A stretch of DNA of 64,000 nucleotides from an uncultured Lachnospiraceae bacterium (GCA_946407765.1 CAMJPD010000001.1:7755-71754); one strand, 5' to 3'; positions 14,080-61,190 are shown, counted from the stretch's first letter. Notes: generated by a model from the sequence alone, not told the origin. Numbers and translations are program-made.

Positions 14080-14093
14080 AAAAGGATAGGGAA

Positions 14094-15344: not shown

Positions 15345-15390
15345 AATGTGATAAAATAGAAGAAGGCGCATTCGTCCAGGAGGTTTTACG

Positions 15391-16419
15391 TTGAGTAAAA
15401 ATATAAAAAAAGTTTTGTCATATGTTGTAGCCATCGTTCTCGCACTTGGCATAGGCGTTACATACGCTTATGCAGTCGGCGGCAATGACACAAATAATTT
15501 AATGACAAAAACAGAATGGCAACAAAAAACAGATCAAATAAGAGCTTCAATTGACAATGTAACAAAAACAATAAATGCAACCAATATGGATTTTGTCATG
15601 AACGGTCCAAGACTCCAAGTAAGTCTTGCAGAAGGATGGCAAAATAATGGAGCAATTATACGACATGATGAAATGTTTTCTCCAACCCACTCCGATACAA
15701 CTTCTACTTGGGATTTATATCCTACACGAAACGATATATTTTTACAAGACACATTTGATGGTAGACAAAAGGTAAAACAAGTAGCTTGGGCAGATAACAG
15801 TCCAACGGGATATTCACTCCACGGTTTAAGAGAGCGCATGGCATTGAAAACAAATATTCCTGATATTTATCTAATAGTTTCAGTTTTTTCACCATTTGCC
15901 GTTTTCTTGCATTATGTACAAGTGGGAACTTATCCTATTTATAATTCAACATCTGCAATTCCTGCAAGAACTTTAACTGTTCAATTACCTCGTCCTGACT
16001 GGGTTCACTATCAAAGTGTGACAAAAACTATAGAAGATGTATCACGAACCAACTCAAGAGTATGGTACGGATATAATCTTGCAGGAAATGCAGAGTATAC
16101 AGATTCTACAATCAATGCAAGTGACGGATTTAGTAATACGGGCGATGCATATGTCAGAAAAACAGTTGCTGCAGCATCAATAACATACACAATAGACTTT
16201 CCAGCAGGAGCTAATTCTATTAGGTCTAGAGTAACAAATTTTTGGGATATTATTCCATGTAATATGAAAACACGTAAATTTGCCACAGCCGGCGATAGAG
16301 TAACAACTGACTTAGTTGGAAAATGGGGAGGTTCTGTTGCCAAAGTATATAGTCCTGCCAAAGGTTGCCTATGTCTTAAAACTTTTGTTAACGGCGAAAT
16401 CCCTATAATGAATGAATAA
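15391..16419 (+). CDS. Cassette 1, family A: secreted hypothetical protein
   Basis: 342 aa. TTG start 6 nt after AGGAGG. Signal peptide ending TYAYA. Family motifs TNMDFVMNGPRLQ, FDGRQKV, PDIYLIVSVF and C-terminal KVYSPAKGCLCLKTFVNGEIPIMNE, shared with 39019, 42518 and 45936. Confidence 0.9.
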   Translation: MSKNIKKVLSYVVAIVLALGIGVTYAYAVGGNDTNNLMTKTEWQQKTDQIRASIDNVTKTINATNMDFVMNGPRLQVSLAEGWQNNGAIIRHDEMFSPTHSDTTSTWDLYPTRNDIFLQDTFDGRQKVKQVAWADNSPTGYSLHGLRERMALKTNIPDIYLIVSVFSPFAVFLHYVQVGTYPIYNSTSAIPARTLTVQLPRPDWVHYQSVTKTIEDVSRTNSRVWYGYNLAGNAEYTDSTINASDGFSNTGDAYVRKTVAAASITYTIDFPAGANSIRSRVTNFWDIIPCNMKTRKFATAGDRVTTDLVGKWGGSVAKVYSPAKGCLCLKTFVNGEIPIMNE

Positions 16420-16436
16420 GAAGGTAGAGGCAGATG

Positions 16437-17672
16437 ATGAATAAATATATAAAAAAATGTTTAATTATATACCTAACTCTTGCCACAGTTTTATGTGGTA
16501 TGGTAGGTGTTGCTTATGCAGTAAGTTCTACTGATGCCGATGAATTTTTAACTCGCTCTGAATTTGCAGTTGATTTTGCAAGACTTGTAAAAAAATTAGA
16601 CGAGGAAGAACGAGAGGTATTAAAAAACATTTACAAATACCGTACAACAAATGTTAAATTTGTAACATGGGACACTCCAACAAAATATTACAATAGTACA
16701 AATGCCGATGGCGGATATTACAACGGAGGAAATGTATTTCCACGACCAAAAATATCTGGAGGCAGTGCCAATTATGGCTGGGGTTTTTCAAATGGCAGTG
16801 CCACAAATAAAAAACTTGGTAGATATACAAACTATTGTTTATATAGATTATGGAATGGCAATTACTATATAACAAAAAATATATATGGATATGATGATAA
16901 TTCAAGACATTATTATCCTACGGTAAACTATTCTGTTCCAATAGAAAATTTTCCAGGATGGTATTTGGAAGTAAGAAACTATTATCTAGCCAATAGTTAT
17001 ATAGGCTCTTACTGTTCAATAATAAGGCTCGACCCAAATGCTATAAATTACCCAAGCACTTCAGATACACTAATTCTTCGCTTTAAAAAAGATAAGTTCG
17101 TATATTGTGGTGATAATGTAACAAAGTTAACTACAACAAAAAACACAGTTACATATACTAGTGATTATTGGCAAGGTCCACTCGTGATAGCTCCTCTCAC
17201 TTTTGATAAGTATAGTGATTTTGCTGCCCAAGGAACTCAAAGCGCAACTTACGAAAGTTGGATTGATGAATCAACAGGCGATTTTATGATGACCATAAGA
17301 GGTCTTTCTAGATGCTATGCAACAGATACGACCAATTATTATAATTATGTATATTATTTAGCAAATTCAAATATAACAGTTTGTAAAATTATCCCATCAG
17401 ACAACGTTGAATATATGTGTGGAAACTTATATGGATATTATTCAAGCAGAGTTACTTGGCAGCCATCAATGTCATCTCCTTATGTTCCATCAGCTTGTTT
17501 CATAGGCACTGGACTGCTAGAAGATCCATATTGGCAATATGAATTTGTAGATTGTGAAAACGGAATTAAATATTGGCATGCTTATAAACCACCAGCATTA
17601 GCCCCTAGTTCTGCAACATCTAATGCTCCAACTTCAGTAGGCATACACTACTCACTTCCTATAGTTTATTAA
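16437..17672 (+). CDS. Cassette 1, family B: secreted hypothetical protein
   Basis: The second of two adjacent ATGs is chosen (GAGG spacing; N-terminus MNKYIKKCL identical to B3/B4). Signal ends VAYA. Motifs YKYRTTNVKF, YRLWNGNYYI, SVPIENFPGWYL, DNVEYMCG, CENGIKYWHAY, C-terminal HYSLPIVY. Confidence 0.9.
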   Translation: MNKYIKKCLIIYLTLATVLCGMVGVAYAVSSTDADEFLTRSEFAVDFARLVKKLDEEEREVLKNIYKYRTTNVKFVTWDTPTKYYNSTNADGGYYNGGNVFPRPKISGGSANYGWGFSNGSATNKKLGRYTNYCLYRLWNGNYYITKNIYGYDDNSRHYYPTVNYSVPIENFPGWYLEVRNYYLANSYIGSYCSIIRLDPNAINYPSTSDTLILRFKKDKFVYCGDNVTKLTTTKNTVTYTSDYWQGPLVIAPLTFDKYSDFAAQGTQSATYESWIDESTGDFMMTIRGLSRCYATDTTNYYNYVYYLANSNITVCKIIPSDNVEYMCGNLYGYYSSRVTWQPSMSSPYVPSACFIGTGLLEDPYWQYEFVDCENGIKYWHAYKPPALAPSSATSNAPTSVGIHYSLPIVY

Positions 17673-17683
17673 GGCGGTGACAT

Positions 17684-18667
17684 ATGAAGAATATAAATAT
17701 AAAAAAATTAATTCCAGGAATAATTAGCATAGTAGTAGTTATAGGCATGGCACTTCAATCATTTGCCACAGATATTGATATGGAATCATTTGTAAGAAGA
17801 GATCTCCATAAACAAACATATTATGAACTTGATTGGCTGATTGATGACATAGAAAAATCAATTGAAAGATTATATAAATGGACATGCACTAATGTTGTGT
17901 CATTTGGCGGTCAAGGAAATTATGTAAACGGAACAACAATTTCTTATCAAAGAGCTTCCACTCAAACATATCACTGGAATATGGATCCAATAATCGACTT
18001 ATCTGAAGAAGGCTACCTAAGATTCAACCCAGCCGATGCAATAAATGCTTTTGGAAACCATTCAAAGGCAGATGTATATGAAGCAGAACTTCCAGCAAGT
18101 CTTGCACTCTGGCGAAACGAAGTTGAATTATATCCAACAACAAAAATAAAAGCAAAACTAACAAGAACCTGGCCTAACACAACATCTGCCTCACAAAGTG
18201 CAACATGGACACAAGAAATAATTATGGGACCATTTAAAAAATTCCCAAACATCTCAACCCTCACAACTCAGGCCTCTACATTTTGCTCAGTCACAAAATT
18301 TTTCCCACTCTCATTTGACATGGCAAGTGTTTCATATAGATACGGAACCGAAACAGAACCAACAAGCTGGACAAGCATGACAGGTTCTCTTACCGTACTC
18401 CAAACAGATAAAAACACACAAAGCTATTCAACCATCCCAAGAGAATTACTACGAGGCGTTACGACGCAGGCAGATATAGAAGACAACTTCTATCGTGGCG
18501 ACAAAAGCAAAATTTCTACAACAGCTTGTTATTTTTATGCAAACACAACATGGGGAACAAATTTATCTAATTATGATAAAGTTTGGATTAGAGCAGTCGG
18601 CACAGTAAGCGGAACTTACGAACACAAAATTGACGGATGGACCCTCACCTCATGGAACAAAAAATAA
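17684..18667 (+). CDS. Cassette 1, family C: secreted hypothetical protein
   Basis: 327 aa, 11 nt after B1. Signal ends QSFA. Motifs YYELDWLIDDIEKSIERLYKWTCTNV, LPASLALW, MGPFKKFP, EPTSWTS, C-terminal TSWNKK. Confidence 0.9.
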   Translation: MKNINIKKLIPGIISIVVVIGMALQSFATDIDMESFVRRDLHKQTYYELDWLIDDIEKSIERLYKWTCTNVVSFGGQGNYVNGTTISYQRASTQTYHWNMDPIIDLSEEGYLRFNPADAINAFGNHSKADVYEAELPASLALWRNEVELYPTTKIKAKLTRTWPNTTSASQSATWTQEIIMGPFKKFPNISTLTTQASTFCSVTKFFPLSFDMASVSYRYGTETEPTSWTSMTGSLTVLQTDKNTQSYSTIPRELLRGVTTQADIEDNFYRGDKSKISTTACYFYANTTWGTNLSNYDKVWIRAVGTVSGTYEHKIDGWTLTSWNKK

Positions 18668-39018: not shown

Positions 39019-40104
39019 ATGGAAAGACATATAAAAAAATATTTGTCATATGTGCTTGTGATTGTTCTTGCAGTAGGAATGGGCATCTCATATGCATATG
39101 CAGTTGGAGCCAACGACTCTAATGCTTTTGTTACTATACAAGAATATGAAGAAAGAGTTGAGGAAATTGAAACTTCAATTAATAATATTTCTAAAACAAT
39201 ATTAGATACCAATATGGATTATGTAATGAATGGTCCTAGACTTCAAGCTAATCTTGTAGAAGGTTTTGAAAATAAAGGTGGTACTAACTTAGCCGGAGCA
39301 AGCGTAATGTATTATCCATATAGAGACAATGCTGAAAGTACATGGTTTAGCAGATATTCTCCAGTTAACTATGTAATGCTTGGAGATACATGGGATGGTA
39401 GACAAGTTGTAACAGGTAATATTCCAACCTATGCAGGAGATGTTAATAATACTTTGTTTCCATGTATGTGTAGATTTGCAGTTAAGTCAGACACTCCAAA
39501 TATATACATAATTCTTTCTTTCTATTATGCTGGCATAGGAGATCCAGATGGAATAAGAATTTATATAGGTCAAGCAAGTTATGTTGACTTAAGTAAAGAA
39601 ATACAAGACTACTCTCAAGCTACTACAATTACTGCAACAGTTCCTCTCACAGAATGGTGGAATCTTGGTGGAACTGCAGGGCCACAAACACTAGCAAGAA
39701 ATAATACAAGTATATATACAGGATCTAAGAGTGATTCAATGTTCCCACCATATCTTATTTACTCTACTAATAATAGTGCAACAACATATAACTTATCAAA
39801 TCCAGGAACTGGTTGGCTAACTCGTGCTGTTACACCACTTTCTGCTACTGTTACATTTGAATTCCCAGCAAATAGCTGTATCATACGATATGAAAATACA
39901 AGCACACCATATTTTGCATGGAATTTATTTCCTATAGATATGAAAGGAAGAAAATATGGTAATGCTTATGATCAGATTTATGTAAGTGATACTACTACTA
40001 CATATAAGTCAGCCCACGTAATTGCTAAAGTTTATAGTCCACAGAAAGGTTGTCTTGCACTTAAGTCTTATCTTAATGGTGAGATACCAATTCTTAATGA
40101 ATAA
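39019..40104 (+). CDS. Cassette 2, family A: secreted hypothetical protein
   Basis: The internal ATG at 39019 is chosen (GGAGGGG RBS; N-terminus MERHIKKYLSYV aligns with the other A proteins). 361 aa. SYAYA-VGANDSNAFVT, TNMDYVMNGPRLQ, TWDGRQVV, PNIYIILSFYY, KVYSPQKGCLALKSYLNGEIPILNE. Confidence 0.9.
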   Translation: MERHIKKYLSYVLVIVLAVGMGISYAYAVGANDSNAFVTIQEYEERVEEIETSINNISKTILDTNMDYVMNGPRLQANLVEGFENKGGTNLAGASVMYYPYRDNAESTWFSRYSPVNYVMLGDTWDGRQVVTGNIPTYAGDVNNTLFPCMCRFAVKSDTPNIYIILSFYYAGIGDPDGIRIYIGQASYVDLSKEIQDYSQATTITATVPLTEWWNLGGTAGPQTLARNNTSIYTGSKSDSMFPPYLIYSTNNSATTYNLSNPGTGWLTRAVTPLSATVTFEFPANSCIIRYENTSTPYFAWNLFPIDMKGRKYGNAYDQIYVSDTTTTYKSAHVIAKVYSPQKGCLALKSYLNGEIPILNE

Positions 40105-40151
40105 TTTTGCAAGGTGCATAAAGCAAGAACAAGAAATTAATAGGAGTTAGT

Positions 40152-41402
40152 ATGAAGAACTATCTTAGAAAAACTTTAATGATATATATATCACTTGCGA
40201 CCATCCTTGTTGGTATGGCAGGAGTTTCTTATGCTATCACAGCATCTGAAGCAGATGAATATGTAACAAGAGCTGAGTTTACAGTTAAGATGGAATCGGT
40301 TAGAGATAAGCTTAATGAAAAGGAAATAAAACTTCTTGGTGAGATTAATAAATATCGTTCAACCCATGTGAAATTCACAACATTTGATTCACCTACTCGT
40401 CAACACACAGCTGCAAATGCAAGAGGTGGTTATTACAATGGCGGTAATATGTTCCCAAGACTTAGATTAAACAATGAATGGTATTATGGTTCGCTTGGAT
40501 GGGCAGCAGATATTAATGGAAAGAGTGATGGTCAATATAGACACCTTAATTTATTTAGATTGTGGAATGGCAACTATTACATAACGAATGAAATTTCTGC
40601 CAAGACATCTCTTGAATCAGGTACTGGTACACAATACTTTGGAATGAGAAAATGTGCTGTCCCTGTAGAAAATTATCCAGGTTGGTATATGACCCTAATT
40701 ACCTATAGCTCTTTTGGACATTATATAAGATGGTGGGGTTCACTTGTAAAGCTTGATCCAAATGTTCCTATGCCAAGCAACAATGAGCTTATGAGAATGA
40801 GAAATGGATGGATAACTCTTAGATTCAAGAAAGAATTATGGACATATATTTCTCCAACACTTACAACTAAAATTACAAAAAATAAGTTTACAACTAGTAT
40901 TACAACATATCATTATAGTAATATGAATGAAGGATTTCTTGCTGACTCTTACCGTTCAGATTTGAGTACTAATTCAAATACTACAATGAATTATTCAACA
41001 TGGTTAGATGAGACAACAGGAGACTATATGTGCTCAATACAATATGTAAGACCTGTGTCTGAATATTATGGAGAGGATGTATATGTATTCAATAGTTCCA
41101 ATATAGGACTTTGCAGACTTGTTCCTCAAGATAACGTTGAGTATCTTATGGGATCTATTATATATGATGGTTCTGGTTCAGGAAGAACTAGCACATCTTA
41201 TGCTTCTATATATCCAGATCCACGTTATATAGGAACAGGACTTTATAATGACCCATATTATGAATATGAAATCGTGGACTGCGAGAATGGCATAAAGTAT
41301 TGGCATGTAAGAAAGAAACCAACTAAGTATCTTATTTCAGGTGCAGCTGCCACAGTACCAACAACACTTGCTTTAAATTATTCTATTCCTATTGTTTATT
41401 AA
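40152..41402 (+). CDS. Cassette 2, family B: secreted hypothetical protein
   Basis: 416 aa. RBS AGGAG. Signal ends VSYA. INKYRSTHVKF, FRLWNGNYYI, AVPVENYPGWYM, WLDETTGDYM, DNVEYLMG, CENGIKYWHV, NYSIPIVY. Confidence 0.9.
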   Translation: MKNYLRKTLMIYISLATILVGMAGVSYAITASEADEYVTRAEFTVKMESVRDKLNEKEIKLLGEINKYRSTHVKFTTFDSPTRQHTAANARGGYYNGGNMFPRLRLNNEWYYGSLGWAADINGKSDGQYRHLNLFRLWNGNYYITNEISAKTSLESGTGTQYFGMRKCAVPVENYPGWYMTLITYSSFGHYIRWWGSLVKLDPNVPMPSNNELMRMRNGWITLRFKKELWTYISPTLTTKITKNKFTTSITTYHYSNMNEGFLADSYRSDLSTNSNTTMNYSTWLDETTGDYMCSIQYVRPVSEYYGEDVYVFNSSNIGLCRLVPQDNVEYLMGSIIYDGSGSGRTSTSYASIYPDPRYIGTGLYNDPYYEYEIVDCENGIKYWHVRKKPTKYLISGAAATVPTTLALNYSIPIVY

Positions 41403-41445
41403 TTAATTTTATTGATTGCAATATACCAGATATTGAGGAAAAGTT

Positions 41446-42423
41446 ATGAATAAACTAAATTTAAGAAAATTGATTCCAGGAATTATAAGTGTGTTCATTA
41501 TCATGAGCATGGGATTTGCTACATTTGCCACAAATCTTGATCTAGAAGCATTTGTAAAGAGAGATGTTTTTCTTACTAAGTATTACGAGCTTGATTGGAA
41601 GGTAGATGAACTTGATTCTATGATTCAGAGACTTTATAAATTTACATGTGATAATGTAAAGTCTTTTTCAGGAACATATATGCACTATAACTCATCACCA
41701 TATTTTGCTATGCCTAATCAAGGAAATAATACATATCCACTTAGAAATTATGTCATTGCAGAAATAAGTGATGAAGGATATCTTCATGTTAACAAGAGAT
41801 TTACTCTCTATGTCAACTCATTTACAAAATCTAATGTAAAAACACTTACAAGAGAAATTCCTGCATCACTATGTGCATGGATGCCAGGTATAGAACCAGC
41901 TCCAAATTGTAAAGTAAAATATAATATTAAGATAACAGATACAAACCCAACACAAACTACAGGAACGAGCAGTACAGTAGAAGTAATCATGGGACCATTC
42001 AAAAAATTCCCAAGAATTACAGGAACGGGACTTTCAGGTGCTCTCATATGTGAAGTTCCAAGAGTTTTAATTCTCGGAGGGTTTAACCCAGCAAACTCAG
42101 TGTACTTTGCACAAAATCAAGAAAAGGAACCAACATCATGGTCATCAACTACAACAGCTATGTATGTAGGCACAAATAACAAGGGTTCGCAATATTCTCG
42201 TTTTCCAGATATGGACATAACACAATTTACAAATGATATATATACACTCGATTCTTCAAAGCAGACACAAACATTTTATTTTTCAAACGCTTTTTCGCAA
42301 GACTTATCTAATGCAACTAATGTATGGATAAGATATTATACGACAGATAACAATAATATAAATACACAGGGTAATTATGCCGCATTCCCACAGATGAACA
42401 TCACCTCGTGGAACTATAGATAA
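41446..42423 (+). CDS. Cassette 2, family C: secreted hypothetical protein
   Basis: 325 aa. Signal ends ATFA. YYELDWKVDELDSMIQRLYKFTCDNV, IPASLCAW, MGPFKKFP, EPTSWSS, TSWNYR. Confidence 0.9.
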   Translation: MNKLNLRKLIPGIISVFIIMSMGFATFATNLDLEAFVKRDVFLTKYYELDWKVDELDSMIQRLYKFTCDNVKSFSGTYMHYNSSPYFAMPNQGNNTYPLRNYVIAEISDEGYLHVNKRFTLYVNSFTKSNVKTLTREIPASLCAWMPGIEPAPNCKVKYNIKITDTNPTQTTGTSSTVEVIMGPFKKFPRITGTGLSGALICEVPRVLILGGFNPANSVYFAQNQEKEPTSWSSTTTAMYVGTNNKGSQYSRFPDMDITQFTNDIYTLDSSKQTQTFYFSNAFSQDLSNATNVWIRYYTTDNNNINTQGNYAAFPQMNITSWNYR

Positions 42424-42517: not shown

Positions 42518-43573
42518 ATGAACAAACACATCAAAAGATGCATGTCATATGCCCTCGGCATCATTCTTGCAATGGGCATCGGCCTTTCGTATGCGTATGC
42601 AGTCGGCGCCAATGACTCAAACGCATTCGTCACAGTGACAGAGTTTGATGCAAAGGTTGCCCAAATCGAAGCATCACTTGATAATGTTGCACAAACTATA
42701 AAAACTACGAATTTAGACTTTGTCATGAACGGTCCAAGACTTCAAGCAAGCCTTATTGAAGGGATGGAAAATACAAGTGGTGCTTCTACTTACGGAAATC
42801 CATTTGAATCTACCATGTCTTCTGGACTTAGTACAACAACCAATAACTATTTAATGAGAAGCAATATAGTTCTTACAGATCAATGGGATGGTAGGCAATC
42901 TGTGGATAGATATGACTATTATGGTGGAGATATGAATGGCCCAGAATATTCTTGCAAGATGAGGTATGCGCTTAGATCGGATCAAGATCCAAATATTTAT
43001 TTAATTTTTAGTTATTATTATGTTGCAAATTCAGGACATCCAACTCTCGTACAAGTTTGGTATCTTGATATAAGTAAGCCATATCAAGATTATTCTACTG
43101 CTAGAAGCCTTACTGTTACTTTCTCATATCAAGATCACATGCTTTTTAATGGAAATCCATTTTATGACACATCAAGAAGTAGCTCATATATATACACATC
43201 GAACAGACTTGAGTATATGCAAAATACTAGATTGTGCTATTCAGGTAGTAATAATACTCCTACATATGGGGCTTTAGCAAATCCAGGAACAGGCTATTTT
43301 ACTTGCCAAGTAATAGGAGACAATGTAACACAGACATATGACTTCCCTGCAAACTCAGGAGGTATGAGACTAGTTGCAGGATGGCTATCTTTTGGTCCAT
43401 GTGCGTTAAAAAGAATGGAAGGACGTAAATATGGGAATCTATCAGATATGCTAAGAGTATCTGTTACAGGCGACACAAAGCCATCACAAGTTTATAAAGT
43501 ATTCTCTCCTCAAAAAAACTGTCTAGCTCTTAAATCATACATGAATGGTGAGATACCAATATTTAATGAGTAA
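42518..43573 (+). CDS. Cassette 3, family A: secreted hypothetical protein
   Basis: The internal ATG at 42518 is chosen (AAGGAG RBS; MNKHIKRCMSYA aligns with the family). 351 aa. SYAYA-VGANDSNAFVT, TNLDFVMNGPRLQ, QWDGRQSV, PNIYLIFSYYY, KVFSPQKNCLALKSYMNGEIPIFNE. Confidence 0.9.
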   Translation: MNKHIKRCMSYALGIILAMGIGLSYAYAVGANDSNAFVTVTEFDAKVAQIEASLDNVAQTIKTTNLDFVMNGPRLQASLIEGMENTSGASTYGNPFESTMSSGLSTTTNNYLMRSNIVLTDQWDGRQSVDRYDYYGGDMNGPEYSCKMRYALRSDQDPNIYLIFSYYYVANSGHPTLVQVWYLDISKPYQDYSTARSLTVTFSYQDHMLFNGNPFYDTSRSSSYIYTSNRLEYMQNTRLCYSGSNNTPTYGALANPGTGYFTCQVIGDNVTQTYDFPANSGGMRLVAGWLSFGPCALKRMEGRKYGNLSDMLRVSVTGDTKPSQVYKVFSPQKNCLALKSYMNGEIPIFNE

Positions 43574-43586
43574 TAGGAGAACGGCG

Positions 43587-44858
43587 ATGAATAAATATAT
43601 TAAAAAGTGTTTAATTGTATATGTTTCTCTTGCACTAATCCTTGTTGGTATGGCTGGAGTTTCTTATGCCATTACTGCATCAGATGCAGATGGTTATGTA
43701 ACAAGATCAGAATTTGCAACAGATATGACATATCTCCAAACAAAACTAGATGAAAAAGAATCAAGTCTTTTAGGCAAGATAAATAAATATCGTTCAACAG
43801 ATATAAAATTTATAACATGGGATTCTCCTGACAAATATTATGACGTAGGAACAAGTAATAGATTCAGCGGTTATCATACTGGTGGAAACTTTTTTCCAAG
43901 AAAAAAATCTGCTAACGGCTCTAACTATATGTATTCATATGGTTTATATAACAATATGTATCAGAGAGGTACACAAAACTATAGAACAGACATAAATATA
44001 TATAGGCTATGGAATGGAAATTATTTTATCTGCCCATCTTTAGGAGACAAAGAAAGTTTGTCTGACGACTCTGGAATAGAATATTATGATCTTAGAACAT
44101 ATGCTGTTCCTGTAGAAGACCTTCCAGGATGGTATATGGTTATGGGAACTTTCTATCAAGAATATGCTTATTTAAGATTAATTTTTTCTCTTGTAAAACT
44201 TGATGCTTCAGTTCCTATGCCATCTAATAGTGAATTGCTTAATATATATAATACTTCACATACAATTCGTCTTAAGAAAGATCTTTGGGATTATTGCGGT
44301 GACTATACCCCAAAATTAACAACAACTCCAACAACACTAACAGCAACTTCTACATATGCATACAATACAAACTGGACTGGTCCGCTTTGCCCTACTTGGA
44401 TTACAGGTAATAGATCTGGTTCTTCAGGAACTGATTCTTGCGTATGGACAGGAGTAGTTGATAAGGATACTGGAGATTATATACTTACATTCAACCATGT
44501 GCGTCCAGTTTCTGCATATTACCAGGATATATGGTATGACTATTCTGGAACTAATTGCATGATATGTAGATTTTTACCAAAGGATAATGTTGAATATATG
44601 ATGGGACCTATGTCAACGACATCACTTAACTATGCCCCTTCATCAACTAATCAAACATCAAGTCAGATGGCAATCCCAGATGCGAGATACATAGGAACAG
44701 GATTGCATGATGATCCATCATGGGAACATGAAATTGTAGAATGTGTTAATGGAATTAAATACTGGCATGCTGTCAGAAGAGCAGAGAACACAAGAAAGAG
44801 TACTGTCAAGACACCTTTTGGACTTTCGTTCCACTGTTCATTACCAATAGTATATTAA
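43587..44858 (+). CDS. Cassette 3, family B: secreted hypothetical protein
   Basis: The ATG at 43587 is chosen (AGGAG RBS; MNKYIKKCL). 423 aa. INKYRSTDIKF, YRLWNGNYFI, AVPVEDLPGWYM, DNVEYMMG, CVNGIKYWHA, HCSLPIVY. Confidence 0.9.
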   Translation: MNKYIKKCLIVYVSLALILVGMAGVSYAITASDADGYVTRSEFATDMTYLQTKLDEKESSLLGKINKYRSTDIKFITWDSPDKYYDVGTSNRFSGYHTGGNFFPRKKSANGSNYMYSYGLYNNMYQRGTQNYRTDINIYRLWNGNYFICPSLGDKESLSDDSGIEYYDLRTYAVPVEDLPGWYMVMGTFYQEYAYLRLIFSLVKLDASVPMPSNSELLNIYNTSHTIRLKKDLWDYCGDYTPKLTTTPTTLTATSTYAYNTNWTGPLCPTWITGNRSGSSGTDSCVWTGVVDKDTGDYILTFNHVRPVSAYYQDIWYDYSGTNCMICRFLPKDNVEYMMGPMSTTSLNYAPSSTNQTSSQMAIPDARYIGTGLHDDPSWEHEIVECVNGIKYWHAVRRAENTRKSTVKTPFGLSFHCSLPIVY

Positions 44859-44883
44859 AACAAATGTTTATAAGGTGAAAGTT

Positions 44884-45882
44884 ATGAATATAATAAATTT
44901 AAAAAAATTTCTCCCAGGATTTATAAGTGTGGTTATAATAGCAGGCATGGCTGCAAGTACATTCGCAACAAATATTGACCTATCAGCATTTGTTCAGAGA
45001 GATACATATAAAACAAAATTTTATGAGCTTGAGTGGCGCATAGATGATATAGATAACGAGCTTGATAGACTTTATAAATATACATGTACTAATATTAAAT
45101 CATTTGCTGGGTCAAATTTTGCATATAATGGATATGTTTTTAGATCTGCATTTCATCCAAATGCTCAAACTAGTGCAACATATGTTGCAGCTTCTATAGG
45201 AAAGATGTTAGATACAAGTCAAAGCAAGTATTTAAGATTTAATTCTGCAGGACTTCTTAGTTGGGCTTCTGCTACATATGATTCAACAAAAACGCTTCGC
45301 GTGTTTGAGTATAGTGTTCCAGCAAGTCGTTGCATATGGCGTGATGACATAGAGTTATTGCCAGAAACTAAAGTGTCACTAAGAGGAACTTTAGATGGAA
45401 TTATAAACGCAACATCTTCAATAGAAATAGTTATGGGACCATTCAAGAAATTTCCTAAGATCACAAGCCCAGGAATGGGGAAAACGACGGGATATGTATG
45501 TGAATGGCCTACAGCAGTATTGCACAATGCATGGTCTGATAGAACAATATATTATGCTTCAGGTTCTAAAACAAAACCAACATCATGGACTACAGAATCA
45601 AGTGCAAAAATGTATATTACATATGCCACAAGAGGAATAACTTCAAATTCTAAGACAGTGCCTTCAACAGATGAAGATAGAGCAGGAGGATTCTTCAAGG
45701 AAGCCATGAAGGACTATACTCAACAACTCTATATTTACACATCTGCCTTTAATGCACTTGATGGTAAGGAAAATTGCTGGGTAAGACTAAATTTTTCAAT
45801 GAGCAACGATACAGGCTCTATGGCAGCAAGACTTGATAGTAGCTTTGTAAATCACACCAACTGGAACACCCACGAGGAATAA
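44884..45882 (+). CDS. Cassette 3, family C: secreted hypothetical protein
   Basis: The ATG at 44884 is preferred to the GTG at 44875 (AAGGTGA RBS; MNIINLKKFLPGFISV aligns with C1/C2). 332 aa. FYELEWRIDDIDNELDRLYKYTCTNI, VPASRCIW, MGPFKKFP, KPTSWTT, TNWNTHEE. Confidence 0.85.
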   Translation: MNIINLKKFLPGFISVVIIAGMAASTFATNIDLSAFVQRDTYKTKFYELEWRIDDIDNELDRLYKYTCTNIKSFAGSNFAYNGYVFRSAFHPNAQTSATYVAASIGKMLDTSQSKYLRFNSAGLLSWASATYDSTKTLRVFEYSVPASRCIWRDDIELLPETKVSLRGTLDGIINATSSIEIVMGPFKKFPKITSPGMGKTTGYVCEWPTAVLHNAWSDRTIYYASGSKTKPTSWTTESSAKMYITYATRGITSNSKTVPSTDEDRAGGFFKEAMKDYTQQLYIYTSAFNALDGKENCWVRLNFSMSNDTGSMAARLDSSFVNHTNWNTHEE

Positions 45883-45935
45883 CAGGGACGTAAGAATAAT
45901 TATTTCCCACTTAATAAATATACAAGGAGATTATG

Positions 45936-46958
45936 ATGAAAACGAACATTAAAAAGTATCTTTCATATGTTCTCGGTATTGTTCTCGCAATGGGCCTTGG
46001 CCTTTCGTATGCATATGCAGTCGGCGCCAATGACTCTAATGCATTCGTCACCAAGACAGAGTGGCAGGTGAAGGTAGCTCAACTTGAGACCTCACTTGAC
46101 AATGTAAATAAGACAATTAAAGATACTAATATGGATTTTGTGATGAACAGACCAAGATTGCAGGTTAATCTTTTCGAGGGATTACAAAACTGTGCATTTC
46201 CAACAAGAGAATCAAGACTTTACTTTGCTCCATCTGGTTATCACAGTACCTCTTTTTCGAGTATAGAAAATCAGTATCCAAAGTGGAATGGACTATATCT
46301 TGCAGATCAGTGGAATGGAAAACAAAAAGTTGTAAATTCTTATTGGCCAACAGGAGATACATCTTATGAAACAGAAAGCTTTTGCTGCAGATATGCTCTT
46401 GCAACAACAACACCAGGTTATTATGTAATAGTATCTGTATTTTATAGATCTGCACACACATTCCACTATGTTAAGTTAGGAAAATATCCTTTTGAGTCAT
46501 CTGTATCAGCTAAATCACTTCAAGTAAAGTTTAAGAAATCAGAATGGGGAAACATACACAATAATAGTCAAGTAAGTGCATATAGCAGATCTAATTCATA
46601 TATTTATTCGGGAAATGTATATCCACAAAACACATCCTACGTAAACTGGGTAAATGGTGCTGCAGATGGCTACACAGGTACAAATGCATACACATCACGC
46701 GTTGATGATGGAGAATACTGGACACAAACTTTTGAATTTCCATCTGGTAGCTGGGCGATGAAATGTGTAGGTAGTTCGTCTCCTTATCATTTGTTCCCTT
46801 TAGATATGACTACGAGAAAATTTGGAACGCTTTATGATACATGTAATGTGAACCCAACAGACCAATGGGGTGAAGTAGCCAAGGTCTATAGTCCAGCCAA
46901 AGGTTGTTATTGCTTAAAGTCATATATTAATGGCGAAGTTCCTATACTTAATGAGTGA
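45936..46958 (+). CDS. Cassette 4, family A: secreted hypothetical protein
   Basis: The second of two adjacent ATGs is chosen (AAGGAG spacing; MKTNIKKYLSYV has the same length as A2). 340 aa. SYAYA-VGANDSNAFVT, TNMDFVMNRPRLQ, QWNGKQKV, GYYVIVSVFY, KVYSPAKGCYCLKSYINGEVPILNE. Confidence 0.9.
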   Translation: MKTNIKKYLSYVLGIVLAMGLGLSYAYAVGANDSNAFVTKTEWQVKVAQLETSLDNVNKTIKDTNMDFVMNRPRLQVNLFEGLQNCAFPTRESRLYFAPSGYHSTSFSSIENQYPKWNGLYLADQWNGKQKVVNSYWPTGDTSYETESFCCRYALATTTPGYYVIVSVFYRSAHTFHYVKLGKYPFESSVSAKSLQVKFKKSEWGNIHNNSQVSAYSRSNSYIYSGNVYPQNTSYVNWVNGAADGYTGTNAYTSRVDDGEYWTQTFEFPSGSWAMKCVGSSSPYHLFPLDMTTRKFGTLYDTCNVNPTDQWGEVAKVYSPAKGCYCLKSYINGEVPILNE

Positions 46959-46972
46959 TGGAGGCAGAGATT

Positions 46973-48220
46973 ATGAATAAATATATTAAAAAGTGTTTAG
47001 TTGTATATATATCTCTAGTTGTGATTCTATGTGGCATGGTAGGAATTACTTATGCTATAACAGCATCTGATGCAGACCAATATATTACCAGATCTCAATA
47101 TGCAACAGATATGAATCATTTGCAATCGAAGCTTGAAGAGAAAGAATCAAGCATTATGGGCAAAATTAATAAATATCGTTCAACAGATGTTAAGTTTGTA
47201 ACATACGATAATCCTATAAAGCAACACCTTAGTGGAACAACTAATTTTATAGGAAAATACAATGGAGGAAACTATTTCCCAAGGCAATATCCCGGCAATG
47301 CCGGTGGTAGAAATGCCACATATGAAGCTGTATCATATCAAAAGCAGGGAACAAATGCACATTTGAATTTATATAGATTATATAATGGTAATTATCTCAT
47401 TTCTAATGCTATGGGATATTCAGATGATAGTACTTATACTTTATATCCTACGACAAATTTTGCTGTTCCATGTGAAAATTTACCAGGTTGGTATCTAGAA
47501 TGTAGATTACAATATCAAGGCTGGAATGTTTGCTACTACCTTGTATCATTATTAAAACTAGATGCAACTGTTCCATATCAAAAACCATACGCTACAGAAA
47601 GAAATAGAATACATAATATGGAATTGATGTTCCGTTTTAAGAAAGATTTCTTCAAATATACAAGTGATTATGCAACAAAATTAACTCCAACACCTACTAC
47701 ATACAGTGCTAATATAGCACGTTTCTATAATTCAGCATATAATCAACCTTTCTCATATTGTTATCACAATACAGAAAGTTCTAATAGTGAGGCGGTAACT
47801 ATTCGTTCATGGCTTGATGAGGATACGGGGGATTATATGATGGGAGTAAAGGGACTTTATGCTAATATCCCTGATTATGCTTCTGCAACCATGTGGTTTA
47901 CTAGTTCAAGTATAGGACTCTCAAGACTTATAGTTTCGGATAATGTTGAATACCAATGTGGTAATACTTATGGATATTTCTTTACAAATACAGGTGGAAA
48001 TAGCGGACAATCTCAAGGTGGATATCCACCTCCATGTCACATAGGAGAAGGGCCTGGCGCATATGGTGATGGTTACTGGGAATATGAATTTGTTGATTGT
48101 GAAAACGGAATAAAATATTGGCATGCTTATAGAAAAGCAAGAAATGCAAATCCAACAGGTGAGACGGGAACAGGATATTCTTCTGTAGGCGTTCACTATA
48201 ATATTCCTATATTATATTAA
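46973..48220 (+). CDS. Cassette 4, family B: secreted hypothetical protein
   Basis: The ATG at 46973 is chosen (GGAGG RBS). The first 27 nt are identical to B3. 415 aa. INKYRSTDVKF, YRLYNGNYLI, AVPCENLPGWYL, DNVEYQCG, CENGIKYWHAY, HYNIPILY. Confidence 0.9.
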   Translation: MNKYIKKCLVVYISLVVILCGMVGITYAITASDADQYITRSQYATDMNHLQSKLEEKESSIMGKINKYRSTDVKFVTYDNPIKQHLSGTTNFIGKYNGGNYFPRQYPGNAGGRNATYEAVSYQKQGTNAHLNLYRLYNGNYLISNAMGYSDDSTYTLYPTTNFAVPCENLPGWYLECRLQYQGWNVCYYLVSLLKLDATVPYQKPYATERNRIHNMELMFRFKKDFFKYTSDYATKLTPTPTTYSANIARFYNSAYNQPFSYCYHNTESSNSEAVTIRSWLDEDTGDYMMGVKGLYANIPDYASATMWFTSSSIGLSRLIVSDNVEYQCGNTYGYFFTNTGGNSGQSQGGYPPPCHIGEGPGAYGDGYWEYEFVDCENGIKYWHAYRKARNANPTGETGTGYSSVGVHYNIPILY

Positions 48221-48261
48221 TTCATAATATACGGTTATAAATTTTAGATAAGGGTGAAATT

Positions 48262-49239
48262 ATGAAAGCAAATATAAATAAAAAAATGATAACTTCCATA
48301 GTAAGCATTGTTATTGTCGCAGGCATGGCTCTTCAATCATTTGCTACAAATATAGACCTTGAAGCCTTCGTTAATAAAGAGGAATATATGTCTAAGTACT
48401 ATGAGATCGATTGGAGAATTGATGAGATAGATGCAGAGCTTGAAAGACTTTATAAGTTTACATGTACTAATGTTGCTTCATATGGAGGAACAGGTGATAA
48501 TACATATCGTTCTGATCAGCCATTTTACATGAGAAATGTAACACAAACATACCCATGGTATCCAAATCCTATTGTAGATACAAGTACTGAAGGTTATCTT
48601 CGTGTTAATTTCCAGGATATGATACATAAGTATGGCGCTCATGGTAAGTATGACGTTTTTGAAAGAGAAGTCCCAGCTTCATTATGTAAGTGGAGAACAG
48701 GTTTTGAGTTATATCCTAATACAACAATTAAGATGAAGGTAACAAGAAACCTTGCAAATACAACTTCAGCTTCTCCAACTAAAGGTATGTCTGCTGAAAT
48801 GATAATGGGACCATTCAAGAAAGTCCCTTATATTACACAGACTTCTTATGCAGGAGCATTAATGACAACAGACCAATTTTTCTGGCACTATCAAACTTCT
48901 TACAACATGTATTATGCTTATGGCACAGATAAAGCGCCAACAACATGGTCAACTCAGATGGGAAGTAATATTTACCTATCAAATATGAGCCTTGGTAATA
49001 ACAAGCCAGATAATTTTCCAGCTGAATTAAGATATGAAGTAGATATAGAAAATTCAAAATATAAATATGACAAGGCATCTAATGTAGCCTTTATGTATTG
49101 TTCAAGTGCAATGACAACAGATCTTCGCTCTCGTGATAAGGTATGGCTTAGGGCATATGCAAGTTGGACAGGAGAATTAACAGACTTAACTCTCGCTGAT
49201 TTAACATGTACAACCTGGAACTACAGACCAGCAGAATAA
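48262..49239 (+). CDS. Cassette 4, family C: secreted hypothetical protein
   Basis: 325 aa. Signal ends QSFA. YYEIDWRIDEIDAELERLYKFTCTNV, VPASLCKW, MGPFKKVP, APTTWST, TTWNYRPAE. Confidence 0.9.
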   Translation: MKANINKKMITSIVSIVIVAGMALQSFATNIDLEAFVNKEEYMSKYYEIDWRIDEIDAELERLYKFTCTNVASYGGTGDNTYRSDQPFYMRNVTQTYPWYPNPIVDTSTEGYLRVNFQDMIHKYGAHGKYDVFEREVPASLCKWRTGFELYPNTTIKMKVTRNLANTTSASPTKGMSAEMIMGPFKKVPYITQTSYAGALMTTDQFFWHYQTSYNMYYAYGTDKAPTTWSTQMGSNIYLSNMSLGNNKPDNFPAELRYEVDIENSKYKYDKASNVAFMYCSSAMTTDLRSRDKVWLRAYASWTGELTDLTLADLTCTTWNYRPAE

Positions 49240-49363: not shown

Positions 49364-49498
49364 TGATACCAAATGGGTGGCGTTTATTTCGCCGTTCGTT
49401 TGTATTTTTTGAGTATTTTGCTTGCTCAAAACTTATTAAAGTAGCCATCAAGGCAGATGTTCAAAACTTAAATTGATATAACACACGGAGGTTTCTCT

Positions 49499-51848: not shown

Positions 51849-52637
51849 TTGAAAATAAATTTCAAAAAATCTATCACTATTTTAGCTACCATATTAGTAA
51901 TGCTTTCTGCAGTATATGTTTCATCTGCCTACGCAAGTAGCAATGAAACAGTTGATATAGCAGAATTGGAAAAATATTTCAGCAAACCTATAGATGCCAA
52001 ATTAGATATCAATACAAAATATGTTCTAAAGTATAACAACGAAGAAAAAAAATATGACATCTATGTTATGGGAACTGGTAGAAAAGTAGATATGACAGGA
52101 TGGGTTTATGTTCATGACCCAGATACCCCATCAGACAACTGGTATTATTTTGACAAGAATACTAAGAATATAAAAACTGGTTGGATAGAAGATGAAGGCA
52201 ATGTTTATTATCTACACGAGAAGAAAGACTCATTATGTGGCAGAGTATATTCAGGTTGGCATGATATAAAGGACGTTGTGTATTTTTTCAATGAACATAA
52301 TTTTGCTCTTGAGAAAGTAATGTCTAAGCAAGATGCAAGAAAGAATAATATAGAAACTATAGAAGGCAAATTGCAACGCATGCAGGAAGAAGCAAAAGCT
52401 CTTCAAGCAGCAAGTGAATATAGAAACAATACATCAAGTAATTATCAGTCTCAAAACTCTGCACAAAATATAACAAGAAGTGATATAGGTCAGCCAATAA
52501 CAAGTTCTGTTGGTGGTGCATCAAATCCTGCAGATGCAATGAGACAAGCAGAAGCTAATGCACAAAATGGAGCACAGGGTCTTACGGGTGAAGAATTAGT
52601 GCGTATACTTAATCAGAGAAATTCACAGATAAGATAA
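51849..52637 (+). CDS. Small secreted protein consisting essentially of the choline-binding-type anchor module plus a Gln/Asn/Ala-rich tail
   Basis: 262 aa. TTG start 7 nt after AGGA, 13 nt after the upstream stop. Signal ends SAYA. NWYYFDKNTKNIKTGWIEDEGNVYYLHEKKDSLCGRVYSGWHDIKDVVYFF closely matches the anchor block of the 778-aa protein. Confidence 0.8.
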   Translation: MKINFKKSITILATILVMLSAVYVSSAYASSNETVDIAELEKYFSKPIDAKLDINTKYVLKYNNEEKKYDIYVMGTGRKVDMTGWVYVHDPDTPSDNWYYFDKNTKNIKTGWIEDEGNVYYLHEKKDSLCGRVYSGWHDIKDVVYFFNEHNFALEKVMSKQDARKNNIETIEGKLQRMQEEAKALQAASEYRNNTSSNYQSQNSAQNITRSDIGQPITSSVGGASNPADAMRQAEANAQNGAQGLTGEELVRILNQRNSQIR

Positions 52638-61189: not shown

Positions 61190-61190
61190 A
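61153..61190. repeat. 38-bp direct repeat, left copy
   Basis: AGGAGGAAACAAATCCGGAACATGGACAATATCTTAAA, identical to 62781-62818. It contains the last 12 codons and stop of the AlbA_2 gene and the ATG of the 61174 gene. Confidence 0.95.

What the first reader, a model, noticed from the sequence alone, without database searches (positions are those of the whole stretch)
45936..49239. A, B and C all begin, right after the signal peptide, with the same kind of 4-heptad segment: candidate heteromeric coiled-coil stalk
The mature N-termini share a pattern across the three otherwise unrelated families.
- A4: VGANDSNAFVTKTEWQVKVAQLETSLDNVNKTIKDTNM.
- B4: ITASDADQYITRSQYATDMNHLQSKLEEKESSIMGKINKY.
- C4: TNIDLEAFVNKEEYMSKYYEIDWRIDEIDAELERLYKF.
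Each has an acidic residue, then (A/Q/G)(F/Y)(V/I)(T/N)(K/R)x(E/Q)(W/Y/F). About four heptads of 3-4 spaced hydrophobics follow (for example V-L-L-V-I in A, M-L-L-L-I in B, I-I-I-L-L in C). The same holds in all four cassettes. Three co-transcribed genes with equivalent helical N-termini and different globular C-terminal parts suggest a 1:1:1 assembly on a common stalk. On that model each cassette would be an alternative head set.
Basis: inference. Interest (0 to 1): 0.7.

Follow-up and report, generated by a model that had tools for sequence, protein, structure and literature searches.

The report
Three-gene knob complex with shared trimer stalk
Three neighbouring genes of an uncultured rumen bacterium encode exported proteins that all start with the same trimer-forming cap-plus-helix, and sequence co-variation suggests they join one-to-one-to-one into a short three-stranded stalk that carries three different heads.

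Summary
All 12 proteins in the window share an in-register N-terminal module directly after the predicted signal-peptide cleavage site, as do about 190 homologue clusters. The module is more specific than "four heptads". It opens with a beta-layer motif, (F/Y)(V/I)T(K/R)x(E/Q/D), which is the trimer-specific cap of alpha/beta coiled coils. A roughly 30-residue amphipathic helix follows, with its hydrophobic seam at +6, +10, +13, +17, +20 and +24. The genes occur only as A-B-C triplets (85 AB, 79 BC and 41 CA junctions; no other order), and their heads co-diverge (r = 0.85-0.90). Opposite-charge co-variation between chains is concentrated at nearly the same helix height: 9 of the top 10 pairs, against a 28% background and 0 of 2000 permutations. 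This supports a parallel, in-register heteromer. No multimer model was possible. Static charge scoring fits homotrimers at least as well, and all known beta-layer proteins are homotrimers apart from the pseudo-trimeric SLH domain. A and B are remote homologues, not unrelated families. The family matches no Pfam model, no paper and no phage or GTDB sequence. Verdict: a new variant of a known kind, with the heterotrimer at about 55%.

The parts
45933..46958 (+). Gene A4 (341 aa): signal peptide, N-terminal module, disordered linker, beta-sandwich head
   Evidence: ORF. AGGAG ribosome-binding site 5 nt upstream. AF2 model has mean pLDDT 80.7 and about 90 in the head, residues 105-341.
45933..46019 (+). 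A4 predicted Sec signal peptide (residues 1-29, ending AYA|V)
   Evidence: K-rich start, a roughly 20-residue hydrophobic stretch and an A-x-A site, read directly from the sequence. Cleavage itself is inferred, not shown.
46044..46052 (+). A4 beta-layer triplet F38-V39-T40, followed by K-T-E
   Evidence: Matches the consensus [aliphatic]-A-T-K-[polar]-[DE] and MPN010 'NFVTKTEF' in PMC4786415. The profile of the module aligns to beta-layer inserts in GCN4 fusions.
46053..46148 (+). A4 amphipathic helix (residues 41-72). Core residues: W44, V48, L51, L55, V58, I62
   Evidence: AF2 helix 41-72. Seam tabulated. 3.5-residue periodicity P = 0.001-0.013.
46973..48220 (+). Gene B4 (415 aa from the ATG with a GGAGG site): signal peptide, module, linker, larger beta-sandwich head
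   Evidence: AF2 model has mean pLDDT 84.5 and above 90 in the head.
47081..47179 (+). B4 beta-layer (Y37-I38-T39) and helix (residues 40-69). Core residues: Y43, M47, L50, L54, K57(!), I61
   Evidence: The polar or small residue at core position +20 is typical of family B.
48262..49239 (+). Gene C4 (325 aa): signal peptide, module, invariant Cys straight after the helix, head
   Evidence: No structure model was made for C.
48367..48462 (+). C4 beta-layer position (F36-V37-N38) and inferred helix. Core residues: Y42, Y46, I49, I53, I56, L60, L63
   Evidence: Alignment in register with A and B. Periodicity P = 0.008-0.03. The helix is inferred by alignment only.
49370..49402 (+). Strong intrinsic-terminator-like hairpin after C4. 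It is the only strong one between 38700 and 49600 on the + strand
   Evidence: 13-bp stem followed by a T-run. Consistent with co-transcription of cassettes 2-4.
15391..18667 (+). Cassette 1 (A1 15391-16419, B1 16434-17672, C1 17684-18667). Modules at 15475-15612, 16521-16658 and 17768-17902
   Evidence: Carries the co-varying set A14=R, C9=T, C16=L, B6=F, C6=H.
39022..42423 (+). Cassette 2 (A2 39022-40104, B2 40152-41402, C2 41446-42423). Modules at 39103-39240, 40236-40373 and 41530-41664
42518..45882 (+). Cassette 3 (A3 42518-43573, B3 43587-44858, C3 44884-45882). Modules at 42602-42739, 43671-43808 and 44968-45102

Best explanation
A, B and C are the three subunits of one exported complex. 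Each precursor has a Sec-type signal peptide. Eight residues (seven in C) after the predicted cleavage site comes a beta-layer motif, (F/Y)(V/I)T(K/R)x(E/Q/D). This three-residue beta-strand caps trimeric coiled coils. A helix of about 30 residues follows, with hydrophobic core positions at +6, +10, +13, +17, +20 and +24.

One A, one B and one C helix pack in parallel and in register into a short three-stranded coiled coil about 4-5 nm long. Most of the strongest A-C and B-C charge pairs fit a cyclic order in which C's g-face meets A's e-face and B's g-face meets C's e/b-face. Flexible linkers then bring three different beta-sandwich heads together. The A and B heads are remote homologues and resemble viral fibre knobs only weakly.

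The cassettes in an array are alternative versions of the complex. They keep the assembly module and diverge in the heads.

Shown: the motif, its register and conservation, the helices in the A and B models, the obligate A-B-C gene unit, co-divergence of the heads, and inter-chain co-variation.

Inferred: signal-peptide cleavage, the trimeric state, 1:1:1 composition, and an extracellular receptor-binding or adhesin-like role. How the complex stays on the cell is unknown.
For: (1) Beta-layer motif. A profile of the 12 modules hits only coiled coils in the PDB, all below significance. Its best real alignment is to beta-layer inserts, 'DQLATKTEINSQ'. The published consensus is [aliphatic]-A-T-K-[polar]-[DE], and MPN010 'NFVTKTEF' is nearly identical to A 'AFVTKTEW'. 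Beta-layers usually cap the N-terminal end of trimeric coiled coils.

(2) The AF2 monomer models place helices exactly after the motif. The conserved segments behind the helices get pLDDT below 50, as expected for parts that fold only on assembly.

(3) Gene unit. Across 57 sources the junctions are AB 85, BC 79, CA 41 and one AA, which is a frameshifted A. No other order occurs. Gaps are 14 and 41 nt, each gene has its own ribosome-binding site, and the only strong terminator follows C4.

(4) Head distances of A, B and C correlate across 40 triplets, r = 0.85-0.90.

(5) Co-variation on 25 cluster representatives:
- A14 acidic goes with C9 basic: 21/0/0/4, Fisher 8e-5. This is a canonical g to e' (i+5) pair.
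- B16 basic goes with C18 acidic: 17/1/0/7, Fisher 2e-5.
- C6 = His occurs only with B6 = Phe: 5 of 5.
- In an unbiased scan of 375 inter-chain column pairs, 9 of the top 10 and 16 of the top 20 opposite-charge pairs lie within 5 residues of the same height. The background is 28%, and 0 of 2000 partner permutations reach this. The result holds across clustering thresholds and choices of representative.
- Intrachain charge co-variation is weaker and shows no i+5 signal.

(6) Where A14 became Arg or Lys, A9 stays Lys, which would be repulsive in an A3 trimer, while C9 loses its Lys.

(7) B carries K/A/Q/T at core position +20 and K/N/R at +27, and lacks significant heptad periodicity. It is therefore a poor homotrimer former.
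Against: - No multimer structure prediction could be run.
- All beta-layer proteins listed in PMC4786415 are homotrimers, except the single-chain SLH domain.
- A simple g-e' charge count scores homotrimers higher than either ABC order: AAA 1.8, BBB 2.0 and CCC 3.9, against 0.7 and 1.25. In the order preferred by co-variation, B9(D) to C14(D) is repulsive in 28 of 40 triplets.
- Core-layer volume compensation gave no signal.
- Almost no A-B co-variation was seen: 1 of the top 20 pairs.
- One strong A-C pair in the MI-APC scan, A16(g) with C18(b), fits the opposite cyclic order.
- The co-variation rests on 25 sequence clusters from a few ruminant metagenomes. Phylogenetic non-independence inflates the Fisher and permutation values, though it does not explain the positional enrichment.
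- Resemblance of the heads to trimeric viral knobs is below significance: Foldseek E of 2e-3 or worse, TM 0.39 or lower.
- No anchor to the cell is evident.
Confidence: 0.55

Rival explanations
1. Each protein forms its own homotrimer (A3, B3, C3), as every known beta-layer-capped fibre does. The operon encodes three different homotrimeric knob proteins that act together. The shared N-terminus is simply an inherited trimerisation module.
For: All known beta-layer proteins are homotrimers apart from SLH. Intrachain g-e' pairs are self-complementary: A9-A14 attractive in 31 of 40, B16-B21 in 28 of 40, C16-C21 in 30 of 40. Homotrimer charge scores exceed those of ABC. The weak structural neighbours, adenovirus fibre knobs and reovirus sigma1, are homotrimers. 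The modules descend from a common ancestor.
Against: It does not explain opposite-charge co-variation between different chains at matching heights, nor the absence of an intrachain i+5 signal. Lineages with A9=K plus A14=R/K would have three repulsive pairs in A3. B has Lys/Arg at core position +20 in about a third of cassettes and shows no significant heptad periodicity. The strict 1:1:1 gene stoichiometry is not required by this model.
Confidence: 0.27
2. The conserved N-terminus is a common docking, anchoring or sorting peptide. It would bind a shared partner such as the cell wall, a neighbouring giant choline-binding-repeat protein or a secretion factor. A, B and C would not touch each other through it.
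For: The eight residues between the cleavage site and the motif are nearly invariant within each family. The proteins have no other recognisable anchor. SLH motifs, 'xITRAEfa', use the same beta-layer plus helix to build a wall-binding domain. Giant proteins with choline-binding repeats flank the cassettes in this window.
Against: Pfam SLH, and every other Pfam family, fails to match even at E = 10. The prong helices that form SLH binding grooves are absent. In other genomes the cassettes sit among housekeeping genes with no giant neighbours. This model does not predict inter-chain co-variation in register.
Confidence: 0.1
3. The N-terminal hydrophobic segment is an uncleaved signal anchor. 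The beta-layer and coiled coil then form a membrane-proximal stalk of a type II membrane complex, homo- or heteromeric, rather than a free secreted N-terminus.
For: The hydrophobic stretch is about 20 residues long, and AF2 models it as a single long helix, residues 3-31 in A4 and 3-32 in B4. This would solve the missing-anchor problem. The paper notes that the membrane-protein family DUF1640 carries the beta-layer motif at the start of its stalk.
Against: The A-x-A-type sites (AYA|V, (S/A)YA|I, SFA|T) are almost invariant at a fixed distance from the motif. That is typical of signal peptidase I substrates. No cleavage predictor or experiment was available.
Confidence: 0.15
4. The resemblance is a chance or compositional similarity between short amphipathic helices that follow signal peptides.
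For: The segments are short, pairwise identity between families is only 13-22%, and part of the profile-profile score comes from the signal peptides.
Against: Cross-family HMM scores exceed 3000 decoys in five of six directions and always align at mature residue 1. The same register holds in about 190 homologue clusters. In 1.84 billion representative proteins the profile recovers almost only A-, B- and C-length proteins, with the module at residues 29-74.
Confidence: 0.02

Closest known systems
Beta-layer-capped trimeric (alpha/beta) coiled coils: Hartmann et al. 2016, eLife 5:e11861. Examples are Tcar0761 'MATKDD', M. pneumoniae MPN010/DUF16 'NFVTKTEF', and the caps of phage tail fibres and trimeric autotransporter adhesins
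   Same: The same motif sits directly before a coiled-coil helix, in the 'N-terminus-to-coiled-coil' cap position. The central residue is small and hydrophobic (V/I). A basic residue opens the helix.
   Different: Every described case is a homotrimer of one gene product. Here three different gene products each carry one copy, and co-variation points to a mixed trimer. C deviates at the third beta position (K/N/R/D instead of T). No Pfam model of these families matches.
SLH (S-layer homology) domain, e.g. B. anthracis Sap, PDB 3PYW
   Same: It is the only known beta-layer bundle built from three non-identical motifs, 'xITRAEaa...'. B's 'YVTRSEFA' looks very similar. The geometry is a pseudo-threefold parallel three-helix bundle.
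   Different: SLH has all three motifs on one chain, has extra prong helices that form the wall-polymer grooves, and is recognised by PF00395. None of these holds here.
Adenovirus fibre knob and reovirus sigma1 head (trimeric viral attachment proteins)
   Same: They are the top Foldseek neighbours of both the A and B head models (5n83, 5nc1, 8ofr, 6fjo, 4gu3). The overall plan is the same: a trimerising stalk plus a beta-sandwich head.
   Different: The matches are below significance (E of 2e-3 or worse, TM 0.39 or lower). The viral proteins are homotrimers. No relatives occur in phage or IMG/VR sequences.
C1q (chains A, B, C) and other heterotrimeric stalk-and-head proteins such as laminin (comparison from general knowledge)
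   Same: Three paralogous chains from neighbouring genes join 1:1:1 through an N-terminal rod and present three different globular heads.
   Different: C1q uses a collagen triple helix and gC1q/TNF-fold heads. There are no Gly-X-Y repeats here and no C1q or TNF structures among the Foldseek matches. These comparators are eukaryotic.
Tripartite secreted toxins Hbl, Nhe and AhlABC (comparison from general knowledge)
   Same: Three co-transcribed, signal-peptide-bearing paralogues that act together.
   Different: Those are all-alpha ClyA-fold pore formers that assemble on membranes. A and B here are beta-sandwich proteins with a short N-terminal helix.

Membership tests
Beta-layer-capped trimeric coiled coil (alpha/beta coiled coil) | Motif [aliphatic]-A-T-K-[polar]-[DE] (three beta residues, then e-f-g) directly preceding the helix | tested here: met
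   A is F-V-T-K-T/Q-E, with T and E in 31 of 31 triplets. B is Y-V/I-T-R-S/A-E/Q. C is F-V-(K/N/R/D)-(K/R)-D/E-x, so it matches only partly. Compared with the published consensus and with MPN010.
Beta-layer-capped trimeric coiled coil (alpha/beta coiled coil) | Coiled-coil hydrophobic seam starting three residues after the beta-layer | tested here: met
   Seam at +6, +10, +13, +17, +20 and +24 in all three families. Periodicity is significant for A and C but not for B. AF2 helices start at +3.
Beta-layer-capped trimeric coiled coil (alpha/beta coiled coil) | Trimeric quaternary structure, with three beta-strands forming a triangular layer | not testable with these tools
   Only monomer AF2 was available. 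The motif residues are modelled as low-confidence coil.
SLH domain (PF00395) | Match to the Pfam SLH model | tested here: not met
   No hit at E of 1 or less on the full proteins, nor at E of 10 or less on the isolated modules.
SLH domain (PF00395) | Three motifs plus prong helices on a single chain | tested here: not met
   There is one motif per chain. Only 7-8 residues precede it in the mature protein.
DUF16 (MPN010 family) / DUF3782 / DUF1640 | Match to the Pfam family model | tested here: not met
   None of these families appears. The resemblance is limited to the beta-layer motif.
Adenovirus fibre knob / reovirus sigma1 head fold | Significant structural superposition on the knob beta-sandwich | tested here: inconclusive
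   Knobs are the top hits for both A and B, but with E = 2e-3 to 5e-2, probability up to 0.9 and TM 0.39 or lower. C was not modelled.
C1q/TNF-like heterotrimers | Collagen Gly-X-Y stalk and gC1q/TNF jelly-roll head | tested here: not met
   The sequences contain no Gly-X-Y repeats. No C1q or TNF structures appear in the top 50 Foldseek matches.
ClyA-type tripartite toxins (Hbl/Nhe) | All-alpha ClyA fold | tested here: not met
   The AF2 models of A and B are beta-sandwiches beyond residue 100. No Pfam hit.
Sortase-, lipoprotein- or choline-binding-anchored surface proteins | LPXTG motif, lipobox Cys, or cell-wall-binding repeats | tested here: not met
   The C-termini are ...NGEIPILNE...YSLPIVY and ...TSWNYR. 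There is no lipobox and no Choline_bind hit, although the neighbouring proteins have such hits.

The most novel reading that the evidence does not exclude
This would be the first natural three-chain heterotrimeric beta-layer coiled coil, in effect an SLH-like pseudo-threefold bundle split over three genes. It would assemble three different knob domains into one receptor-binding complex. The complex is encoded in multi-copy cassette arrays, and in some genomes A's 5' module (signal peptide plus beta-layer plus helix, probably with the promoter upstream) is a discrete, swappable DNA unit. Swapping it would switch which head set is made.
Probability: 0.4. Interest if true: 0.75.

Novelty: new variant of a known kind. 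Interest (0 to 1): 0.6.

Why it matters
Beta-layer coiled coils and fibre-knob attachment proteins are known as homotrimers. A natural 1:1:1 heterotrimer would show how chain order and partner specificity can be encoded in a very short alpha/beta coiled coil, which is useful for protein design. It would also define three uncharacterised protein families that form variable, multi-copy surface or secreted complexes in abundant but uncultured rumen bacteria. The predicted contacts, C9-A14 and B16-C18, are directly testable by charge swaps.

Tried and rejected
- Family libraries. Pfam, NCBIfam and PHROGs scans of A, B and C found no family. A Pfam scan of the isolated modules at E up to 10 gave only noise.
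- Structure searches. Foldseek of the A and B models against PDB and BFVD gave nothing at E of 1e-3 or better.
- Taxonomy. Two GTDB genome scans, one with family A and one with ArgG, found nothing.
- Phage GenBank records and IMG/VR contigs hold no relatives.
- A literature search by peptide strings and by topic found nothing on this family.
- A side-chain-volume compensation test in the core layers gave no significant signal; the best layer had P = 0.064.
- The static g-e' charge count did not favour the heterotrimer. It is reported as counter-evidence.
- The conserved element found upstream of 5'-truncated A genes in other loci is absent from this window.
Full report
**Anatomy of the window**

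The window carries four A-B-C cassettes on the + strand:
- Cassette 1: 15391-18667.
- Cassette 2: 39022-42423.
- Cassette 3: 42518-45882.
- Cassette 4, the subject of the finding: A4 45933-46958, B4 46973-48220, C4 48262-49239.

Each gene has its own Shine-Dalgarno site, and the gaps within cassette 4 are 14 and 41 nt. The only strong terminator-like hairpin between 38700 and 49600 lies just after C4, at 49370-49402. Cassettes 2-4 may therefore form one long transcription unit.

The flanking genes encode giant proteins (at least 3541 aa and 6628 aa) and smaller proteins with choline-binding cell-wall repeats. This indicates a Gram-positive envelope. A, B and C have no such repeats, no LPXTG motif and no lipobox.

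**Checking the observation**

The quoted peptides are exact. MAFFT aligns the mature N-termini of all 12 proteins in a single register, with no internal gap up to helix position +24.

Homologues number only 62, 80 and 45 clusters for A, B and C respectively among 5.8 billion proteins. All are unnamed and have no Pfam domain. In these homologues the signal peptide and the first 45 or so mature residues are by far the most conserved part. Paralogous heads are only 33-45% identical.

With signal peptides removed, HMMs of each family's N-terminus find the other two families at 10-17.7 bits, always at mature residue 1. The best of 3000 decoys scores 6.3-10.3 bits. Profile-profile comparison gives 97.6% for A-B, 83% for A-C and 81% for B-C.

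The A-B alignment runs about 200 columns into the head, so A and B are remote homologues. C is linked to them only through the N-terminal region.

**What the module is**

I number positions from the F/Y of the motif as position 0. The shared pattern is:
- Asp at -4.
- (F/Y) at 0, (V/I) at 1, T at 2, (K/R) at 3, any residue at 4, (E/Q/D) at 5.
- Hydrophobic residues at +6 (W/Y/Y in A/B/C), +10 (V/M/Y), +13 (I/L/L), +17 (L/L/I), +20 (V/x/I) and +24 (I/L/L).
- A shared Asp at +18.

A profile of the 12 modules hits only coiled coils in the PDB, all below significance. Its best genuine alignment is to GCN4 fusions carrying beta-layer inserts, 'DQLATKTEINSQ...'.

Hartmann et al. 2016 (PMC4786415) define the beta-layer as three residues in beta conformation that form a triangular layer across a trimer. 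The consensus is [aliphatic]-A-T-K-[polar]-[DE], and the layer usually caps the N-terminal end of a coiled coil. Their example MPN010, 'NFVTKTEF', is nearly identical to A's 'AFVTKTEW'. All the proteins they list are homotrimers, except the SLH domain, in which three motifs ('xITRAEaa') on one chain form a pseudo-threefold bundle. B's 'YVTRSEFA' closely resembles an SLH motif, but no Pfam model matches.

The AF2 monomer models place a helix directly after the motif: A4 residues 41-72 and B4 residues 40-69. A low-confidence stretch follows in each model; its N-terminal part is a segment conserved within each family. After that comes a confident beta-sandwich head.

Both heads have adenovirus fibre knobs and reovirus sigma1 as their top Foldseek neighbours. 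These matches fall below significance.

In 1.84 billion representative proteins, the module profile finds about 85 proteins of A, B or C length with the module at residues 29-74. It also finds a 212-aa family with the same start, and repetitive 'xLVTKTxFxxKxxEIExKI' fibre proteins.

The segment is therefore a beta-layer cap plus a short coiled coil. That is a trimerisation device, and it is more specific than generic heptads.

**Homotrimer or heterotrimer?**

*Genetic evidence.* In the window and 56 related loci the neighbour order is AB 85, BC 79 and CA 41. There is one AA, which is a frameshifted A. No other arrangement occurs, whether the cassette is single among housekeeping genes or in arrays of five or more. 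Across 40 unique triplets the head distances of A, B and C correlate at r = 0.85-0.90.

*Co-variation.* I used 25 cluster representatives.
- A14 is acidic exactly when C9 is basic: 21/0/0/4, Fisher 8e-5.
- At least three separate lineages changed A14 to R, K or N, and in each C9 and C16 lost their positive charge. The 9-to-14 spacing is the classical g to e' spacing.
- B16 basic goes with C18 acidic: 17/1/0/7, Fisher 2e-5.
- C6 = His occurs only with B6 = Phe.

*Unbiased scan.* I scanned all 375 inter-chain column pairs for an excess of opposite-charge pairing. Nine of the top 10 and 16 of the top 20 pairs lie within five residues of the same height. The background is 28%, and none of 2000 partner permutations reaches this. 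The result is stable across clustering thresholds and choices of representative. Phylogeny can inflate the association scores, but it gives no reason for opposite charges to cluster at matching heights.

*Further points for a heteromer.*
- Intrachain charge co-variation is weaker and has no i+5 component.
- Most of the strongest pairs fit one cyclic order: C's g-face against A's e-face, and B's g-face against C's e/b-face.
- Where A14 became basic, A9 stayed Lys, which would be repulsive in A3.
- B has K/A/Q/T at core position +20 and K/N/R at +27, and lacks significant heptad periodicity.

*Counter-evidence.*
- A static g-e' charge count favours homotrimers: 1.8, 2.0 and 3.9 for AAA, BBB and CCC, against 0.7 and 1.25 for the two ABC orders.
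- B9 (Asp) against C14 (Asp) is repulsive in the preferred order.
- Core volume compensation is not detectable.
- A-B co-variation is nearly absent.
- One strong A-C pair in the MI-APC scan, A16(g) with C18(b), fits the opposite cyclic order.
- Every precedent is a homotrimer.
- No multimer model could be run.

I put the 1:1:1 parallel heterotrimer at about 0.55 and separate homotrimers at about 0.27.

**Function**

The plan is a conserved assembly module with strongly diverging heads, multiplied in arrays. This is typical of receptor-binding or antigenically variable surface proteins. I infer an extracellular adhesin- or lectin-like knob complex.

How it stays on the cell is unexplained. An uncleaved signal anchor is possible. 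So is docking through the nearly invariant first eight mature residues.

The family is cellular, not viral: it has no relatives in phage records or IMG/VR. It was found only in ruminant-type metagenomes (bovine rumen samples and the STEW19 and LIJU20 assemblies) and in no GTDB representative genome. RecU and choline-binding repeats in the contexts suggest a low-GC Bacillota organism. This is an inference.

**A related observation in other genomes**

Several cassettes carry a 5'-truncated A gene. It starts at the 'NMDF' codons, position +28, which is exactly the end of the module. These copies have no signal peptide or helix, and they are preceded by a conserved non-coding element.

Two samples of the same locus, L047 and L049, are identical up to this codon and then diverge. 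One has a full-length A and the other the truncated form.

In L051 a truncated A and a full A face each other across 1367 bp, next to two serine-recombinase genes.

In those genomes the A 5' module therefore behaves as a discrete, exchangeable DNA unit. The element is absent from this window, where all four A genes are complete.

**Novelty**

The three families are undescribed. There is no Pfam, NCBIfam or PHROG model, no names and no papers. The building blocks are known: a beta-layer cap, a trimeric coiled coil and a knob-like head. The probable three-gene heterotrimeric use of them is new. I classify the finding as a new variant of a known kind.

Noticed in passing
L047:3772-3848 and 11727-11803; L049:11640-11960; L051:7643-9129 and 12409-14309; also L019, L024, L034, L038, L040, L048: Some cassettes have a 5'-truncated A gene that starts exactly at the 'NMDF' codons, at the end of the N-terminal module, and lacks the signal peptide and helix. 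These copies are preceded by a conserved non-coding element (...TTAAGTTTCTCTTAAAAAATTAATAAAGTTTAATGTGAGAATTTTCGGACAAAAAATCA|AACATGGAC). L047 and L049 cover the same locus in two samples. They are identical up to this codon and then differ: one has a full-length A, the other the truncated form. In L051 a truncated A and a full A face each other across 1367 bp, next to two serine-recombinase genes. This suggests silent cassettes and a swappable 5' expression module. The element is not present in the window.
   Followed up: partly
window 92-10717 and 18930-38816; also 49499-51835 and 51849-52637: Two giant ORFs (at least 3541 aa, cut by the window start, and 6628 aa) contain long internal repeats, Listeria-Bacteroides (Flg_new) repeats, a run of 20-23 glycines, and C-terminal choline-binding cell-wall repeats followed by Q/A-rich tails. 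Two smaller proteins share the poly-Gly and choline-binding tail architecture.
   Followed up: partly
window 45933-48220 (A4 and B4) and all other A/B pairs: A and B are remote homologues well into the beta-sandwich head: hhalign 97.6%, E = 3e-12, 216 columns, with shared motifs such as 'L.D.WDGRQ' against 'YRLWNGNY'. The triplet probably arose by duplication. C is linked to them only through the N-terminal region.
   Followed up: yes
P0247 (212 aa; from the representative-protein search): A fourth, shorter protein family starts with a signal peptide followed by 'IGVNDSSLYVTKSEFDSEIAKINTKISNIE'. This is the same N-terminal module, joined to a different small C-terminal domain. Its genomic context could not be looked up.
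   Followed up: no
window 10991-12256; L001/L002/L004 (AAA_14-DUF4143); L047, L051, L052, L056 (DUF3800, HicAB, RelBE): Cassette arrays are repeatedly interrupted or flanked by an AAA_14/DUF4143 ATPase gene, DUF3800 genes and toxin-antitoxin pairs. The arrays appear to sit in variable, island-like regions.
   Followed up: no
window 12253-13488 and 61174-62274: Two distant paralogues (BLASTP E = 9e-7 and 4e-6 on two segments) have a signal or anchor segment, a Cys-x-x-C motif and a 'G(E/K)WYVDN' motif, and match no Pfam family. Each follows an ATPase or DNA-binding gene: AAA_14-DUF4143 at 10991-12256, and Schlafen AlbA_2/HATPase_c_4 at 59858-61189.
   Followed up: partly
window 14094-16419, compared with the contig that carries P0018: The synteny 196-aa protein, M20 peptidase, A, B is conserved in a second metagenome contig (191 aa, 410 aa, 377 aa, then B). 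Cassette 1 therefore occupies an ancestral chromosomal position.
   Followed up: no
whole family: Dozens of variants occur in ruminant metagenomes, yet neither the A family nor a close ArgG relative was found in 185,579 GTDB species-representative genomes. The host lineage seems to be missing from, or masked in, that collection.
   Followed up: partly
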